From a virus: a DNA stretch of 64,000 nt. The stretch is taken from IMG/VR virus record IMGVR_UViG_3300044858_003284; one strand, given 5' to 3'. This document shows positions 33,933 to 49,480 of this stretch, one piece after another. A program made the translations under genes and the position numbers. Below the pieces are notes generated by a model. The model ran no database searches. It worked only from the letters and a program-made list of their open reading frames with translations, and was not told where the DNA came from. Position 1 is the first letter of the stretch; each line of letters starts with the position of its first letter.

Positions 33933-34018
33933 GGGTAAGCCGTAGAGTTGGAGAGCTACAGCGGACTGTAAATCCGTTGCCTCAGGCTGAGTTGGTTCGA
34001 ATCCATCCTTACCCACCA
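33933..34018 (+). tRNA. tRNA-Tyr(GUA)
   Basis: Acceptor GGGTAAG/CTTACCC, anticodon arm GCGGA-CTGTAAA-TCCGT, long variable arm, GGTTCGAATCC, encoded CCA. Confidence 0.95.
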
Positions 34019-44390: not shown

Positions 44391-45050
44391 ATGTTTAAAT
44401 ATTGTCCACCAAAAAATCTAGATGATTTAGAAGCAGAAACTTTTCCTGATGGCAGGAGATTTTATGTATTGCCAGACGGCACAAAACTACCATCAGTAAC
44501 AACAGTTCTTGGTGCTCAAAAGAAACAGGCCATCATGGAATGGCGCAAGCGTGTTGGTGAAGATGTTGCAAATCAAATAACGAAGAAAGCGACCTCTCGT
44601 GGTACGGCAGTGCATTCGTTATGTGAAGATTATCTAAACAATAAAACAATTACACCTGGTATTAAATTAGATGCTTATGAAATGTTTTTATCGATTAAAC
44701 CATTTCTTAATCGTATTAATAACATACATTATCAAGAACAGGCATTATGGTCTAAACAATTAGGCATGGCAGGTCGTGTAGATTGTATTGGTGAATATGA
44801 TGGTGTATTATCGGTGATTGATTTCAAAACTTCTAAGGCACCAAAAGATAGAAGCAGCATACAAGAATATTTCTGGCAAACTGCCGCATATGCTTTGATG
44901 TATGAGGATATGATTGGTAAACCCATAGACAATACGGTAATCATTATGGCGGTAGAGAATGAAAAACCATTGGTCTTCCAACAGAAAACGGCAGAGTATA
45001 TCGATGGATTAGTGGAAGCTATCGTTTATTACAATAAAAATAAGAAATAA
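44391..45050 (+). CDS. PD-(D/E)XK exonuclease
   Basis: PSVTTVL, RGTAVH, AGRVDC, IDFKTS, QTAAYA. Confidence 0.85.
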   Translation: MFKYCPPKNLDDLEAETFPDGRRFYVLPDGTKLPSVTTVLGAQKKQAIMEWRKRVGEDVANQITKKATSRGTAVHSLCEDYLNNKTITPGIKLDAYEMFLSIKPFLNRINNIHYQEQALWSKQLGMAGRVDCIGEYDGVLSVIDFKTSKAPKDRSSIQEYFWQTAAYALMYEDMIGKPIDNTVIIMAVENEKPLVFQQKTAEYIDGLVEAIVYYNKNKK

Positions 45051-45354
45051 AGTGGTAAACTTGTAGCTTTCTGGTTGCCTATATAAGTATAAACACTTAT
45101 AATAGGAACACTATGCAAAACAAATATTGGAAAAAACTCTGCACTCCCGAGCAGAATCGGCAACAAATGGGAGCTCTCAAAGTATTGGCTGGGGGTTTAA
45201 GTTTTCTTTTTATTATTTGGTTGTTAGAAAGGATTCTGTAATGCCTAGCAAAGATTGTGTTAAAGAATATAAAGTAAGAAGTTTTGCTTTCTACATGGGT
45301 GCTTGTGCATTTGCTGTAGGTGTATTGGCAATACTTTTTGCATTAACTTAATTC

Positions 45355-45660
45355 GTAGAAGTTGTTTGAAAGTTGTTGTGGACGGCAGTTCAATTCTGCT
45401 CACCTCCACCAAAAGTATATTGACAAACCAGGTTCTTGGTAGCAAACTCGTAAGAGGCAATATACTTCTGATGGGGGTGCAAGGTTTCGACATAGCGATT
45501 AGTATAACAATGGAGAATCGTCAAAGCTAAAGACGTTAGGGTTGAGGATACTCGGCCGAAGAAGCAAAAACTATAAATGCAAATGACGAAAGTTATGCAC
45601 TTGCTGCCTGATAGGTAAGCGGAGTTTCGCCAGGTGAACTTAGCAACAGAATCACCTGGA
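45355..45660 (+). ncRNA. ssrA: Circularly permuted (two-piece) tmRNA, tag ANDESYALAA
   Basis: T arm and CACCTCCACCA (to 45411) precede the 5' end GGGGGTG (45473); G3-U wobble; tag 45579-45611. Confidence 0.9.
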
Positions 45661-45729
45661 TAAATAATATATCAGCAACACACAAACCGCTGATACATTA
45701 CACACATTAACACACACAAGGAGAAGTAA

Positions 45730-46008
45730 ATGAGTATGACACCCTATGAGATACGGCTAGAACTCTTAAAAATGGCCAAAGATATGCTTTCTGATGAGTA
45801 TTACAGTAAGAAAGAGATTATATCAAACCAGTGGTCAACCAAGGTAGAAGAATCCAAAATTAACGGAACAACTTCACCAGAACATCCAGGTTTTCCACCA
45901 TTTCCCACAGAAGATGAAATTGTAAAGAAAGCGGAAGCTCTCAATCAATTTGTTTCTCAAACCCCTCCACAACCTGAAGTTAAAGTAAAGACGAAAACGA
46001 ATTCGTAA
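45730..46008 (+). CDS. Conserved T4-like phage hypothetical protein
   Basis: PYEIRLELLKMAKDML..FPTEDEI..A..LNQFV; late promoter at 45659. Confidence 0.7.
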   Translation: MSMTPYEIRLELLKMAKDMLSDEYYSKKEIISNQWSTKVEESKINGTTSPEHPGFPPFPTEDEIVKKAEALNQFVSQTPPQPEVKVKTKTNS

Positions 46009-46062
46009 TTGGAGACCAAGGCGGTCAGAAGATTTGGCCGCCGTAATCAATAAGGAAGAAAG

Positions 46063-46605
46063 ATGTTTAAATTTAACACACAGAAGTTTAACACATTAGC
46101 AGTAATATTAGCAGTATTAACGATTGTATATACAGCACCAACTCTTTCGAGAGAGTTTGTTACTAGTGCAACACAGAAACAAGTATCTGCAGATTATCAA
46201 AAGCAAGTAGAATGCCTTGCTAAAAACATTTATTATGAATCTGCCGGTGAAACATATGAAGGAAAACTAGCCGTAGCACAGGTCACATTGAATCGTGTAA
46301 ATAGTGGCATTTTCCCTAAAGATATATGCTCGGTTGTTTATCAAAAAACAACTGATCAAAATTTAAGAACAGTTTGCCAATTTTCTTGGACTTGTATGGT
46401 TAAAGAAATGGTACACATTCATGATCGGTATAGATGGGAAGAATCTCATTTAATTGCAAAAAGAGCATTGACAGTTCCAGTCCTACATGATAAGATAGCA
46501 GAAACAAATGCGTTGTATTACCACGCCACTTATGTAAATCCTGGTTGGAATAAAAATAAGGTCGTAACAAAAATAGGTAATCATATATTTTACAGTAGAA
46601 TTTAA
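46063..46605 (+). CDS. SleB-like cell wall hydrolase with N-terminal anchor
   Basis: CLAKNIYYES, AVAQVTLNRV, QFSW, IGNHIFY. Confidence 0.9.
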   Translation: MFKFNTQKFNTLAVILAVLTIVYTAPTLSREFVTSATQKQVSADYQKQVECLAKNIYYESAGETYEGKLAVAQVTLNRVNSGIFPKDICSVVYQKTTDQNLRTVCQFSWTCMVKEMVHIHDRYRWEESHLIAKRALTVPVLHDKIAETNALYYHATYVNPGWNKNKVVTKIGNHIFYSRI

Positions 46606-46606
46606 T

Positions 46607-46828
46607 ATGCCCACCCGTGATGAAATTAAGAAGTTTAGTATGATGATTGAAGAAATGACGGCAGATAAAAAGATAGGTTATATGGATGCTATCTGCCATC
46701 ATTGTAAAGAAACTGGACTAGAAATAGAAGTAGCAGCAACTTTAATATCTTCTGCTTTGAAAGCAAAAATTAAAGAAGAAGCACAAGAAAATAATTTATT
46801 GAAAAAGAGTTCGAAACTGCCTATATGA
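46607..46828 (+). CDS. 33: Late transcription coactivator gp33
   Basis: FS..IE..YMDAI..LKAKIKEEA..NLL. Confidence 0.85.
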   Translation: MPTRDEIKKFSMMIEEMTADKKIGYMDAICHHCKETGLEIEVAATLISSALKAKIKEEAQENNLLKKSSKLPI

Positions 46829-47424
46829 AAAAAATGTTGTGTAAGATACCACACATTATTCATATAGAAAACTTTTTAACAAATGAAGAATGTGATGATA
46901 TTATTAAACATGGTGATCCATTATTAACAGATTCAAATGTTGTAAATGTTGATACTGGCTTCAACGAAAAGATGGATAGTTTTAGAATCAGTAAAGACTG
47001 CTGGTTTGACCACAACAATCCATTGGTAGTAAATCTCCACGATAAAATAGAAAAAGAAATAGGCATCAGTAAAAAGAGATTTGAAGCACTTACAATGCTT
47101 CGATATGATATTGGTGGTCGATATGTGCCACATTGGGATTATTTTGAAGATGTGATACCAACATACCATGACATCGTTAAAGATATTGGTAATCGAGTTG
47201 GTACGGTCATAGTGTATCTCAATGATGTGGAAGAAGGTGGCCACACCACTTTTAATAAACTAAATCTATCGGTTGAACCACAAAAAGGAAGTATGTTATA
47301 CTTTCGTTATGATTACAAAAATAAATCAGACAATGCAAACACAATGCACGCTGGTGAACCTGTAATCAAAGGACACAAATACATTGTAACCACCTGGATT
47401 AGGGAGTTTCCGTTTTCGTTATGA
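46825..47424 (+). CDS. Prolyl 4-hydroxylase-like 2OG-Fe(II) oxygenase
   Basis: YVPHWD, VYLNDVEEGG.T.F, HAGEPV..G.KY..TTWIR. Confidence 0.9.
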   Translation: MKKMLCKIPHIIHIENFLTNEECDDIIKHGDPLLTDSNVVNVDTGFNEKMDSFRISKDCWFDHNNPLVVNLHDKIEKEIGISKKRFEALTMLRYDIGGRYVPHWDYFEDVIPTYHDIVKDIGNRVGTVIVYLNDVEEGGHTTFNKLNLSVEPQKGSMLYFRYDYKNKSDNANTMHAGEPVIKGHKYIVTTWIREFPFSL

Positions 47425-48029
47425 TTGAGAATTCTGGCTTTGCTGCATTTGCAATGTTTCATGCTTTGAAACTGCATTTCACTTCTGATAGTTATGATTA
47501 TGTCAAATATAATGGCAAGACAAATGTTACCAAGACAACATTCTCTACCAGAAAAGACAAGTATTCATTCTATCGACTATCACGTAAATTTGGATTGACA
47601 GAATTACGAGATTACTATATTGCCAATTTTATGGTAGAAGATATTCAATGGGTTGGTGATATTCTAGGACCAGAATCCGAGGACAACTACAAAAAGTGGC
47701 AGAAAAGAACTCAAAGCTTGACTTATACCTTTGAAAATGATATAATTAAACTGTTAGATAGAGTTGATAATCCAAATGATTTATTGATTGTGAGAAACAA
47801 TGAGTTTCCACTTCTAATGCAGTGTGTTCAACAAAAAGATATTGCACTAGAAACATTAATAATTCTAAATGATTTGATGAACTTCTTTCCCATGTGGGAA
47901 AAAGAAATATATGATGATCTTGTTTGGCCTAACTTTAAAAGAAAGTGTGAGAAATACAAACCATTTCTTTCTTATGATAAAGTAAAGTTCAAACAAATTT
48001 TGAAAGAAAAGATAAAAGAATATGCATAA
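47421..48029 (+). CDS. 59: Helicase loader gp59
   Basis: ALKLHFT..YDY.KYNGK, KYKPFL; lies between 33 and 32. Confidence 0.85.
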   Translation: MIENSGFAAFAMFHALKLHFTSDSYDYVKYNGKTNVTKTTFSTRKDKYSFYRLSRKFGLTELRDYYIANFMVEDIQWVGDILGPESEDNYKKWQKRTQSLTYTFENDIIKLLDRVDNPNDLLIVRNNEFPLLMQCVQQKDIALETLIILNDLMNFFPMWEKEIYDDLVWPNFKRKCEKYKPFLSYDKVKFKQILKEKIKEYA

Positions 48030-48601: not shown

Positions 48602-49480
48602 ATGAGTTTTGCTAATCTCAAACGCCAATCTGGCAACCTCGACAAACTATCTAAAGCAATCGAGGCACTCAATACCACAGCAGAAGGTTCCGATAAACCC
48701 GATAATTTTTGGAAATGTGAAGTAGACAAAGCTGGTAACGGCATGGCTACAATTCGTTTTCTTCCCGCATCTGAAAAAGATGGTGAAGATGGTTTGCCAT
48801 GGGTTAAGATGTTCTCACACGGATTCCAAGGTCCTGGTGGTTGGTTAATTGACAACTGCTTGACAACCAAGGAACAAAAATGTCCAGTATGTGAACACAA
48901 TACTGCATTGTGGAATTCTGGCATCGAAGCGAATAAAGAAATTGTTCGTAAACAAAAGCGTAAACTAAATTACATCGCTAACATTTATGTTGTTTCTGAT
49001 CCGAAACATCCTGAAAATGAAGGTAAAGTATTCTTGTTTAAGTTTGGTAAGAAAATCTTTGATAAGATTTCTGAAGCCATGAATCCACAGTTTGCTGATG
49101 AAGAAGCAATCAATCCATTTGATTTGTGGAAAGGTGCCAACTTCAAGTTAAAGATTCGTAAAGTTGAAGGCTATCAGAATTATGATAAGTCTGAGTTCGA
49201 ATCACCATCGGCTTTGTTGAATGATGATGAAGAACTAGAGAAGGTTTGGAAATCACAATACTCTCTAACTGAGATGATTGGTGATAAAGAATTCAAATCA
49301 TATGATGTTTTGAAACAACGCCTTGATAAGGTTCTCGGTTTAAATGGTGAAGTACCTGCCGCTAAAACAACCGTTGAACAAATCAAAGAAGCACCTAAGA
49401 AAGTTCAGCGTGAAGTTGAACCTGATTTAGAAGAAGATGATGATATGGCTTATTTCAGTAAGCTAGCTGAAGAAAATTAA
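48602..49480 (+). CDS. 32: Single-stranded DNA-binding protein gp32
   Basis: IRFLPA, HGFQGPGGW, CLTT..CPVCE, NYDKSEF, acidic tail. Confidence 0.95.
   Translation: MSFANLKRQSGNLDKLSKAIEALNTTAEGSDKPDNFWKCEVDKAGNGMATIRFLPASEKDGEDGLPWVKMFSHGFQGPGGWLIDNCLTTKEQKCPVCEHNTALWNSGIEANKEIVRKQKRKLNYIANIYVVSDPKHPENEGKVFLFKFGKKIFDKISEAMNPQFADEEAINPFDLWKGANFKLKIRKVEGYQNYDKSEFESPSALLNDDEELEKVWKSQYSLTEMIGDKEFKSYDVLKQRLDKVLGLNGEVPAAKTTVEQIKEAPKKVQREVEPDLEEDDDMAYFSKLAEEN

What the first reader, a model, noticed from the sequence alone, without database searches (positions are those of the whole stretch)
45355..45660. Phage-encoded circularly permuted, minimal two-piece tmRNA
Seen: the acceptor piece (helix-2 strand AGTTGTTGTG, T arm, CACCTCC-A-CCA) comes first, then a 61-nt intervening segment closed by AAGTATATTG/CAATATACTT, then GGGGGTG with the G3-U Ala determinant, TTCGAC, the complementary CATAGCGATT and tag ANDESYALAA-stop. 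There is little room for pseudoknots 2-4. Known: permuted ssrA occurs in alphaproteobacteria, some cyanobacteria and some betaproteobacteria. Inference: a compact phage version, perhaps independently permuted, sustaining ribosome rescue during infection; no smpB in this window.
Basis: partly seen in the sequence, partly recalled or inferred. Interest (0 to 1): 0.8.

Follow-up and report, generated by a model that had tools for sequence, protein, structure and literature searches.

The report
Phage two-piece tmRNA, betaproteobacterial type
This uncultured T4-like phage really does carry its own split ("two-piece") ribosome-rescue RNA, but such genes are already described in related marine phages, and this one is an ordinary member of the betaproteobacterial type rather than a new, independently rearranged or specially shrunken form.

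Summary
ARAGORN calls a permuted tmRNA (tag ANDESYALAA, two stops). Rfam RF04321 scores 106 bits against a cut-off of 47.

The window is a T4-like myophage. 61 of 80 IMG/VR relatives carry a permuted tmRNA in the same slot (exonuclease, small ORF, ssrA, gp33, gp59, gp32). Across 36 distinct copies, 93% of cells pair in my 67-pair structure, 45 pairs show compensatory changes, and G3·U is invariant. The tag codons vary mostly synonymously.

No SmpB was found in the window or in three related phage records, so the RNA must use host SmpB, AlaRS and RNase P.

It is not new in kind. Buchholz et al. 2022 described two-piece ssrA in phage Melnitz and pelagimyophages, in this same slot. This scan has noted phage two-piece tmRNAs many times on other DNA.

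It is not independently permuted. It groups with bacterial beta-type two-piece tmRNAs (98/97 support), and Advenella and Oligella have the identical tag.

It is not specially minimal. The mature parts are about as long as in bacteria, and the intervening segment is longer (61 nt against 23-44).

One lead remains open: beta-type permuted ssrA looks mobile, and phages may spread it.

The parts
45075..45103 (+). Sigma-70-like promoter candidate (TTGCCT, 17 nt spacer, TATAAT) that would drive the small ORF and the tmRNA precursor
   Evidence: Consensus scan gives 10 of 12 matches. The same TTGCCT/TTGACT/TTGCCA-17-TATAAT lies 187-273 nt upstream of the tmRNA in relatives. Use as a promoter is inferred.
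45241..45351 (+). Small ORF (36 aa, one hydrophobic helix, MPSKDCVKEYKV...). The last base of its TAA stop is the first base of the tmRNA 5' helix strand.
   Evidence: ORF list (in frame with 45127-45351). The peptide is conserved in many relatives, and others have a 43-aa Lys-rich ORF at the same place.
45351..45411 (+). Acceptor piece: helix-2 5' strands (45351-54, 45361-66, 45371-80), T arm (45384-45400), acceptor 3' strand (45401-07), discriminator A (45408), encoded CCA (45409-11)
   Evidence: Rfam alignment. Covariation: T arm and acceptor stem are 100% paired, with 4 of 5 and 4 of 7 pairs showing compensatory change. CCA is encoded in 38 of 38 phage copies.
45412..45472 (+). Intervening segment (61 nt), removed on maturation. 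It has a closing helix 45413-22/45458-67, an inner hairpin ACCA...TGGT, and the conserved single-stranded leader CTGAT before G1.
   Evidence: All 8 pairs of the main closing helix covary, 95.8% paired. The MFE fold recovers both stems. The leader TCTGAT occurs in 24 of 38 copies. Removal is inferred by analogy with bacterial two-piece tmRNA.
45473..45659 (+). Coding piece: acceptor 5' strand GGGGGTG (G3.U), TTCGAC, helix-2 3' strands (45491-500, 45506-11, 45515-18), hairpin at the PK1 position (45519-35), inserted hairpin (45540-57), tag ORF 45579-45608 with stops at 45609-14, 3' hairpin 45630-59 with a conserved loop
   Evidence: Tag codons 1-3 and 7-10 show 594 synonymous against 134 non-synonymous codon differences among copies. 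The 3' hairpin motif occurs exactly in 72 IMG/VR contigs. The 3' end of the mature piece is not known.
45671..45694 (+). Distal hairpin (ATCAGC ... GCTGAT) between the tmRNA and the next gene. It is not followed by a T run.
   Evidence: Five of 6 pairs show compensatory change but only 75.8% of cells pair. It aligns to the terminal hairpin of the beta_tmRNA model. No intrinsic terminator was found.

Best explanation
Positions 45351-45660 hold a functional ssrA gene for a two-piece (circularly permuted) tmRNA of the betaproteobacterial type. It is carried as a conserved accessory gene by a large clade of uncultured T4-like myophages.

Most likely mechanism:
1. The gene is transcribed early, from the sigma-70-like promoter at 45075-45103, together with a small upstream ORF.
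2. The precursor folds so that the acceptor stem forms across the 61-nt intervening segment, whose own helix stacks on it.
3. Host RNase P cuts before G45473 and host nucleases trim to the encoded CCA at 45411. This releases an acceptor piece of about 61 nt and a coding piece of about 190 nt, held together by helix 2 and the acceptor stem.
4. Host AlaRS charges it through the invariant G3.U pair, and host SmpB delivers it to stalled ribosomes.
5. Translation resumes at GCA 45579, adds ANDESYALAA and stops at TGA TAG. The ribosome is freed and the product is handed to host ClpXP-type proteases.

The benefit to the phage would be continued ribosome rescue once host transcription and the host ssrA supply collapse.

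Shown here: the gene, its conserved structure, selection on the tag peptide, absence of a detectable phage SmpB, and affiliation with the beta type. Inferred: transcription, processing, charging, tagging and the benefit to the phage.
For: - Detection: ARAGORN permuted tmRNA with the tag and Rfam RF04321 at 106.2 bits.
- Phage context: T4-like phage genes throughout the window, including gp32, gp59, a gp33-like gene, RNR, CobS and a tail protein.
- Conservation: 57 of 80 relatives by ARAGORN plus 4 more by Rfam carry a permuted tmRNA in the same slot.
- Structure: 93.1% of cells paired, 45 of 67 pairs compensatory, G3.U in 36 of 36 copies.
- Tag: codons 1-3 and 8-10 never change at positions 1 and 2, apart from two first-position alleles at codon 8 (Leu, once Ile); the rest of their variation is at third positions. 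The window and L011 encode the same peptide with 6 synonymous differences.
- CCA is encoded in all 38 phage copies.
- No SmpB in three related phage records of 98%, 82% and 68% estimated completeness, nor in the window.
- Beta affiliation: relatives score 158 and 99.4 bits on RF01850. In the tree, 36 phage copies plus 39 bacterial beta copies form a clade at 98/97, apart from the bacterial alpha copies. Nine bacterial beta-type sequences in the sample, all Alcaligenaceae (Advenella, Oligella and two MAGs; one Advenella genome was fetched twice, L115 and L233), have the identical tag.
- Published precedent in the same gene slot: Melnitz ssrA (PMC9004378) and an unannotated copy in HTVC008M.
Against: - There are no expression, processing or tagging data, and the host is unknown.
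- The window's own copy scores only 63.7 bits on RF01850, below its cut-off of 84. A real beta tmRNA scores 68.5 on the alpha model, so that number alone lies in the cross-talk range. The beta assignment rests on the tree and on relatives.
- I found no covariation for a second stem of pseudoknot 1. Only a hairpin sits at that position.
- No terminator was found, and the ends of the mature pieces are undefined.
- About a quarter of relatives lack the gene, so it is dispensable.
Confidence: 0.82

Rival explanations
1. The phage tmRNA arose by its own, independent circular permutation of a one-piece ssrA.
For: The window copy fails the cut-off of the lineage-specific beta model (63.7 against 84), and all other tmRNA-clan models score lower. 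Its intervening segment is longer and more structured than bacterial ones.
Against: - Relatives in the same phage clade and gene slot match the beta model over its full length at 158 and 99 bits. The match includes lineage-specific parts: the PK1-position hairpin, the spacer, the tag and the loop of the 3' hairpin.
- The tree joins the phage clade with bacterial beta-type genes at 98/97.
- The tag is identical to that of Alcaligenaceae.
Confidence: 0.05
2. The RNA mainly acts as a hijacker or competitor of host trans-translation rather than as a plain back-up. It would take over SmpB and redirect tagging to the phage's advantage, for instance to degrade host proteins for amino acids (suggested for Melnitz) or to out-compete the host tmRNA.
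For: - The phage brings no SmpB, so it must compete for the host's.
- Early-type promoter upstream.
- Buchholz et al. raise selective tagging as an option (PMC9004378).
- A tag-less phage tmRNA-like RNA (DS6A) is reported to inhibit host tmRNA (PMC11915505).
Against: The tag is an ordinary ANDxxYALAA degron, identical or near-identical to bacterial ones. Nothing in the sequence suggests altered specificity. This reading overlaps with the main explanation and cannot be separated from it by sequence.
Confidence: 0.12
3. It is a dead remnant of a host ssrA, picked up by imprecise excision or kept as an attachment-site fragment.
For: ssrA is a common prophage integration site, and fragments of it occur in phages (discussed in PMC9004378).
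Against: - The gene is complete.
- It is conserved with compensatory changes in more than 60 related contigs.
- The tag peptide is under purifying selection.
- The phage is T4-like and shows no sign of integration in the region examined.
Confidence: 0.01

Closest known systems
Two-piece ssrA of Methylophilales (OM43) phage Melnitz and of pelagimyophages such as HTVC008M (Buchholz et al. 2022, PMC9004378)
   Same: - T4-like (Kyanoviridae-type) myophages.
- The permuted tmRNA sits in the same module: PhoH/exonuclease, small ORFs, ssrA, gp33 coactivator, gp59, gp32.
- Early promoter upstream, and no phage SmpB reported.
- The gene is common but not universal in the group.
   Different: - Melnitz and HTVC008M score as alpha-type (106.7 and 83.8 bits on RF01849, 25 and 56 on RF01850). 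The window's clade leans to the beta type.
- No glutamine riboswitch is present here.
- Tags differ: ANDNYVPVDYALAA in Melnitz and ANFNEYALAA in HTVC008M.
- There is no blastn similarity at E 1e-5 to any record of the phage collection.
- The exonuclease is only 46-47% identical.
Betaproteobacterial two-piece tmRNA (Rfam RF01850; described by Sharkady and Williams 2004, cited from PMC9004378 and PMC11915505, paper not held)
   Same: - Gene order and tRNA-like domain.
- A hairpin at the PK1 position.
- A 10-residue tag of the form ANDE-x-[FY]-A-[LIV]-AA. ANDESYALAA is identical in Advenella and Oligella.
- A single 3' hairpin with a similar loop, and nothing matching pseudoknots 2-4.
- Tree support 98/97.
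   Different: - Phage-borne and AT-rich (42% GC).
- CCA is always encoded: 38 of 38 phage copies against 20 of 109 bacterial ones.
- The intervening segment is 40-142 nt against 23-44 nt.
- The window copy is below the family's gathering score.
- An extra 7-bp hairpin is inserted at 45540-57 in 21 of 36 copies.
Caulobacter two-piece tmRNA (Keiler, Shapiro and Williams 2000; alpha-type, RF01849)
   Same: One precursor, an excised intervening segment, and two RNAs held together by base pairing. This is the working model for maturation, taken from the literature as cited in PMC9004378.
   Different: - A different lineage, with 12-13-residue tags of the ANDN-x-A... type.
- Real alpha genes score 200-316 bits on RF01849. 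The window's nearest copy scored on that model (L014) scores 36.7.
One-piece tmRNAs of cultured phages (for example cluster C mycobacteriophages; PMC13097058 lists one)
   Same: A lytic myophage that carries its own ssrA next to tRNA genes and has no SmpB of its own.
   Different: Those have the standard, unpermuted gene order and pseudoknot-rich structures.

Membership tests
Permuted (two-piece) tmRNA, Rfam RF04321 | Score at or above the curated gathering threshold over the full model | tested here: met
   106.2 bits against 47, model positions 1-213.
Permuted (two-piece) tmRNA, Rfam RF04321 | Permuted order: the T arm and 3' acceptor strand with CCA lie upstream of the 5' acceptor strand, and the two are joined across an intervening segment | tested here: met
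   Read directly from the sequence. ARAGORN flags it as tmRNA*. The acceptor stem is 100% paired across the segment in 36 copies.
Permuted (two-piece) tmRNA, Rfam RF04321 | G3.U70 alanine identity pair | tested here: met
   G45475 lies opposite T45405. The pair is U.G in 36 of 36 aligned copies.
Permuted (two-piece) tmRNA, Rfam RF04321 | Tag reading frame that starts with an Ala resume codon, ends in a hydrophobic degron and a stop, and is kept by selection | tested here: met
   ANDESYALAA followed by two stops. In codons 1-3 and 7-10 there are 594 synonymous against 134 non-synonymous codon differences.
Permuted (two-piece) tmRNA, Rfam RF04321 | Maturation into two base-paired RNAs, alanylation, and tagging together with SmpB | not testable with these tools
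   This needs RNA end mapping and functional assays. The host is uncultured and unknown.
Beta-type two-piece tmRNA, Rfam RF01850 | Score at or above the gathering threshold (84 bits) | tested here: not met
   The window scores 63.7 bits. Relatives in the same slot score 158 (G002) and 99.4 (G001), and L014 scores 72.5.
Beta-type two-piece tmRNA, Rfam RF01850 | Phylogenetic grouping with bacterial beta-type genes, apart from alpha-type genes | tested here: met
   IQ-TREE on 107 rows with the intervening segment removed. The clade of 36 phage plus 39 bacterial beta rows has support 98/97. The bacterial sample was biased by the strict search pattern.
Beta-type two-piece tmRNA, Rfam RF01850 | Ten-residue tag of the form ANDE-x-[FY]-A-[LIV]-AA | tested here: met
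   The identical tag ANDESYALAA occurs in nine bacterial beta-type sequences, and ANDEKFALAA occurs in Cupriavidus and in phage relatives.
Alpha-type two-piece tmRNA, Rfam RF01849 | Score well above the cross-talk level. Real members score 200-316 bits, and a real beta gene scores 68.5. | tested here: not met
   The window's alpha score is below 63.7, because it was left out as a lower-scoring clan member. L014 scores 36.7 and L002 scores 67.8.
Melnitz-type phage ssrA with a glutamine riboswitch in its 3' domain | A glnA or glutamine riboswitch motif next to the tmRNA | tested here: not met
   No such Rfam match appears in 44800-46300 even at E up to 10.

The most novel reading that the evidence does not exclude
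Permuted ssrA may be a mobile, largely phage-borne gene. In that reading, the T4-like phages that hold it in one conserved slot form a lineage spanning 'alpha-like' forms (HTVC008M, Melnitz) and 'beta-like' forms (this clade). The betaproteobacterial 'third lineage' of two-piece tmRNA would then have been seeded or spread by such elements, instead of arising by a separate permutation in bacteria.

Pointers:
- When the tree is rooted on bacterial alpha genes, the bacterial beta clade nests among phage lineages, with HTVC008M and Melnitz in between.
- Monophyly of all phage copies is not rejected (AU p = 0.22).
- Four of five bacteria checked carry the beta-type permuted gene as a second copy beside a full standard tmRNA. 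In the two whose neighbourhoods I examined, the neighbouring genes look like those of mobile elements.
- The distribution in Burkholderiales is patchy: 4 strong matches in 151 genomes.
Probability: 0.2. Interest if true: 0.65.

Novelty: new member of a known kind. Interest (0 to 1): 0.3.

Why it matters
For annotation, this is a real and widespread RNA gene that should be labelled ssrA in this phage clade. It is unannotated in the HTVC008M record, and ARAGORN missed it in four relatives.

Biologically, it adds a large clade, described as freshwater in an earlier scan note that I did not check, to the marine phages already known to carry two-piece tmRNA. It also shows that one conserved slot in T4-like genomes holds different tmRNA types. 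This fits the view that large lytic phages top up the host's ribosome-rescue capacity.

The wider question it opens is whether permuted ssrA travels between bacterial classes on phages and other mobile elements. If so, the accepted picture of three independent permutation events would need revising. My data raise that question but do not settle it.

Tried and rejected
- blastn (near and distant modes) of the tmRNA and of 20 kb around it against 50,697 phage records: no match. An exact 24-mer from the T arm and acceptor in IMG/VR: no match.
- Whole-genome search: not possible, because no genome is held for this window.
- Glutamine riboswitch as in Melnitz: not present.
- My first regular expressions for tmRNA landmarks were wrong or too strict. 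I replaced them with ARAGORN coordinates.
- Second stem for pseudoknot 1, and a pseudoknot between the region upstream of the 3' hairpin and its loop: only 3-bp candidates, not convincing.
- Promoter inside the intervening segment (TTGACA at 45420 and TATACT at 45462): read by eye only. The spacing is 36 nt, and the -10-like hexamer is part of a covarying helix and is not conserved as sequence in divergent copies. Rejected in favour of an RNA processing stem.
- Naming the host: the genome search gives no taxon names for genomes reached through loci, so I could not target Methylophilaceae or SAR11.
- Sharkady and Williams 2004 is not held.
- My first SmpB HMM was contaminated by two antisense translations. 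I rebuilt it.
- The first tree, without bacterial alpha genes, was dominated by long branches. It was superseded.
- Nothing in this report rests on the unpublished genome G035, which appeared only as a weak 47.7-bit hit.

Full report

Yes. The sequence holds, in this order:
- a helix-2 strand AGTTGTTGTG (45371-80)
- a T arm GGCAG/CTGCT (45384-45400)
- the 3' acceptor strand CACCTCC, discriminator A and an encoded CCA (45401-11)
- a 61-nt intervening segment (45412-72) closed by AAGTATATTG/CAATATACTT
- the 5' acceptor strand GGGGGTG (45473-79), with G3 opposite a T
- TTCGAC (45486-91)
- the complementary helix-2 strand CATAGCGATT (45491-500)
- the reading frame GCA...GCC for ANDESYALAA (45579-45608), followed by TGA TAG

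ARAGORN calls a permuted tmRNA with exactly this tag. Rfam's tmRNA_permuted model RF04321 matches 45351-45611 at 106.2 bits against a gathering score of 47. The minimum-energy fold of 45351-45700 recovers the acceptor stem, the closing helix of the intervening segment and the 3' hairpin, with z = -3.95 against shuffles.

**2. What is the window?**

It is a T4-like myophage. It has gp32 (48602-49480), gp59 (47421-48029), a gp33-like late-transcription factor (46607-46828), ribonucleotide reductase, CobS, a PD-(D/E)XK exonuclease (44391-45050) and a tail protein. GC content is about 36%.

gp32 is 57-59% identical to that of cyanomyophages and Pelagibacter phage HTVC008M. No cultured phage is close at the DNA level. 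Earlier notes of this scan on the same genome call it a freshwater T4-like phage. I did not check that label.

**3. Relatives and conservation**

- The exonuclease has 429 confirmed relatives in IMG/VR. I fetched the best 80, at 68-91% identity.
- ARAGORN finds a permuted tmRNA just downstream of the exonuclease gene in 57 of them. Rfam finds four more that ARAGORN missed. That is 61 of 80.
- The exact 22-nt motif of the 3' hairpin occurs in 72 IMG/VR contigs.
- With the window's copy there are 36 distinct sequences (alignment A1).

I tested my own 11-helix, 67-pair structure on A1:
- 93.1% of cells form standard pairs, against 37-52% when the partners are slid.
- 45 pairs show changes on both sides.
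- No shuffle out of 500 reaches the observed values.
- The acceptor stem changes on both sides at four positions, while G3.U is kept in 36 of 36 copies.
- All eight pairs of the main helix that closes the intervening segment covary.

The tag is under selection as a peptide. Codons 1-3 and 8-10 never change at positions 1 and 2, apart from two first-position alleles at codon 8 (Leu, once Ile); their other variation is at third positions. Codons 1-3 and 7-10 show 594 synonymous against 134 non-synonymous codon differences. The window and L011 encode the same ten residues with six synonymous differences.

This is a working gene, not a relic.

**4. Local anatomy and likely expression**

A sigma-70-like promoter (TTGCCT, 17 nt, TATAAT; 45075-45103) follows the exonuclease gene. 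It recurs 187-273 nt upstream of the tmRNA in relatives.

Between the promoter and the tmRNA lies a 36-codon membrane-peptide ORF (45241-45351). The last base of its stop codon is the first base of the tmRNA helix. Other relatives carry a 43-codon Lys-rich ORF there instead.

No intrinsic terminator follows. After the tag there is one well-supported hairpin (45630-59) and a weaker distal one (45671-94). The ribosome-binding site of the next gene (ATG at 45730) comes next. The tmRNA is therefore probably cut out of a longer early transcript, as T4 tRNAs are. That step is inferred.

No SmpB gene is detectable in three related phage records of 98%, 82% and 68% estimated completeness (Pfam PF01668). 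None is detectable in the window either (HMM of four bacterial SmpB sequences against all six-frame ORFs, best E = 2). The RNA must therefore depend on host SmpB, AlaRS, RNase P and proteases.

**5. Which kind of two-piece tmRNA?**

Lineage-specific Rfam models give the following scores in bits. Gathering scores are 84 for beta, 50 for alpha and 70 for cyano.

| Copy | Beta (RF01850) | Alpha (RF01849) | Cyano (RF01851) |
|---|---|---|---|
| Relative G002 (L057) | 158 | 55.5 | 51.1 |
| Relative G001 (L002) | 99.4 | 67.8 | 39.6 |
| L014 | 72.5 | 36.7 | 43.9 |
| Window | 63.7 | lower | lower |
| HTVC008M | 56 | 83.8 | 20.5 |
| Melnitz | 25 | 106.7 | none |

Calibration matters here. Real alpha genes score 200-316 bits on the alpha model, and a real beta gene (Azonexus) scores 68.5 on it. 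Real beta genes score 103-299 on the beta model. The window's 63.7 bits is therefore not decisive on its own.

Three further lines place it with the beta type:
- L057 aligns to the beta model over its full length. The match includes the hairpin at the PK1 position, the spacer, the tag and the loop of the 3' hairpin.
- A pattern scan of the genome collection returned 120 bacterial beta-type genes: Rhodocyclaceae, Azonexaceae, Zoogloeaceae, Advenella, Oligella, Cupriavidus and Herbaspirillum. Their tags are ANDERFALAA, ANDEQFAIAA and similar. Nine sequences, all Alcaligenaceae (one Advenella genome was fetched twice), have ANDESYALAA, the window's exact tag. Alpha tags are 12-13 residues of the ANDN-x-A type.
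- In an IQ-TREE tree of 107 genes with the intervening segment removed, the 36 phage copies and 39 bacterial beta genes form one clade at 98/97. Thirty bacterial alpha genes, HTVC008M and Melnitz fall outside it.

An independent permutation in this phage is therefore unlikely.

**6. Is it 'minimal'?**

Not in any special way. Without the intervening segment the window's gene is about as long as bacterial beta-type genes: roughly 298 against 276 nt of ARAGORN span. The lack of pseudoknots 2-4 is shared with the beta model, which has only a hairpin and a terminal hairpin after the tag.

What differs from the bacterial genes:
- The intervening segment is longer and structured: 40-142 nt in phages (61 nt here) against 23-44 nt in beta bacteria and mostly 22-57 nt in alpha bacteria.
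- CCA is encoded in 38 of 38 phage copies against 20 of 109 bacterial beta genes. This would spare the phage RNA a dependence on CCA addition.
- A 7-bp hairpin (45540-57) is inserted in 21 of 36 copies.

I found no covariation for a second stem of pseudoknot 1.

**7. What is already known**

Buchholz et al. 2022 (PMC9004378) described a two-piece ssrA in the OM43 phage Melnitz, directly upstream of the late-transcription coactivator. They counted 53 two-piece tmRNAs among 18,146 phage genomes, 50 of them aquatic, and found permuted tmRNAs in 17 of 47 Melnitz-like contigs.

I confirmed the shared synteny. In Melnitz the order is PhoH, PD-(D/E)XK nuclease, two small ORFs, SsrA, coactivator, gp59, thyX, gp32. 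In HTVC008M an unannotated permuted tmRNA (tag ANFNEYALAA) lies between the exonuclease and the late-promoter factor.

The tmRNA database paper lists 79 phage tmRNAs and built RF04321 (PMC11915505). This scan has noted phage two-piece tmRNAs on other DNA many times (757 findings hold the search words 'tmRNA permuted piece phage ssrA'; the eight shown were seven phage cases and one marine bacterium).

The kind is known. This copy is a new member, differing in lineage type and habitat.

**8. What remains open**

Exonuclease identity and tmRNA identity correlate across the clade (Spearman rho 0.65), but with clear discordances. The phages closest to the window by exonuclease (89-91%) have tmRNAs only 81-82% identical to the window's. 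The closest tmRNAs (90-91%) sit in phages with 72-73% exonuclease identity. Cassettes are evidently exchanged at this slot.

When the tree is rooted on bacterial alpha genes, the bacterial beta clade nests among phage lineages. The AU test cannot reject monophyly of the 36 phage copies (p = 0.19) or of all 38 (p = 0.22).

Cupriavidus, Herbaspirillum, Pseudomonas indica and Methyloprofundus each carry a full standard tmRNA besides the beta-type permuted one. Advenella carries only the permuted one. The neighbours of the permuted copy look like mobile-element genes: ParB-N and DNA methylases plus an AAA_25 protein in P. indica, and a PRPP-synthetase-like gene plus NAPRTase in Cupriavidus. Only 4 of 151 evenly sampled genomes of the order have a strong permuted match.

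Together this suggests that permuted ssrA moves horizontally and that phages may be a vehicle. However, my bacterial sample was biased by a strict search pattern and lacks SAR11 and streamlined freshwater Burkholderiales, and long AT-rich phage branches are involved. I rate this reading at about 0.2.

**9. Verdict**

It is a phage two-piece tmRNA that relies on host SmpB. It is neither independently permuted nor specially minimal.
- Novelty: a new member of a known kind.
- Interest is modest. The main value is correct annotation and the lead on the mobility of permuted ssrA.

Noticed in passing
L081:7040-7381 (KC465899.1, about 145120-145461): The GenBank record of Pelagibacter phage HTVC008M has no feature for its permuted tmRNA (tag ANFNEYALAA; RF04321 90.6 bits, RF01849 83.8 bits). 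The gene lies between two hypothetical genes in the same slot as in the window.
   Followed up: partly
G007:C10:65682-66041, G008:C5:36484-36846, G306:C14:72437-72815, G307:C71:5909-6286; permuted copies at L179, L169, L184, L199: Cupriavidus, Herbaspirillum, Pseudomonas indica and Methyloprofundus hold both a full standard tmRNA and a beta-type permuted tmRNA. Next to the permuted copy are mobile-element-like genes: ParB-N/DNA methylases and an AAA_25 protein in P. indica, and a PRPP-synthetase-like gene plus NAPRTase in Cupriavidus. Advenella has only the permuted gene.
   Followed up: partly
window 45241-45351, and the equivalent place in relatives: One of two unrelated small ORFs sits directly before the tmRNA. 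One is a 36-aa membrane peptide (MPSKDCVKEYKV...) and the other a 43-aa Lys-rich peptide (MKVKELIKKLYEAE...). Each ends in TAA whose last A is the first base of the tmRNA 5' helix. Function unknown.
   Followed up: partly
window 45638-45651 against 45361-45366 and 45372-45377: The nearly invariant loop of the 3' hairpin contains AGCAAC, complementary to the GUUGUU repeat in the acceptor piece. Six alignment columns pair in 86% of cells, competing with helix H2b. This may be a tertiary or alternative pairing.
   Followed up: partly
L082 (Melnitz MZ577097), intervening segment of its tmRNA: The Melnitz intervening segment is 142 nt. It opens with a GAGAAG...ATG reading frame that has no stop inside the segment. 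Other agents of this scan have reported genes nested in such spacers.
   Followed up: no
L039:1773-2017, L045:1644-1898, L060:7636-7891, L066:5388-5632: Four relatives have permuted tmRNAs that Rfam RF04321 finds (82-103 bits) but ARAGORN misses. In three of them (L039, L060, L066) the best lineage model was alpha_tmRNA at 61-66 bits, which is in the cross-talk range; L045 passed no lineage model.
   Followed up: no
L045:4884-4920: An abiF RNA motif (RF03085, 53 bits against a gathering score of 37) lies about 3 kb downstream of the tmRNA in one related phage contig.
   Followed up: no
L061:4884-5289: ARAGORN also calls an overlapping standard tmRNA with an implausible 29-residue tag next to the real permuted one. 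This is probably a false positive.
   Followed up: no
window 33933-34018: A tRNA-Tyr (GTA) gene with a long variable arm is the only tRNA in the window. It lies just upstream of the CobS-like gene.
   Followed up: no
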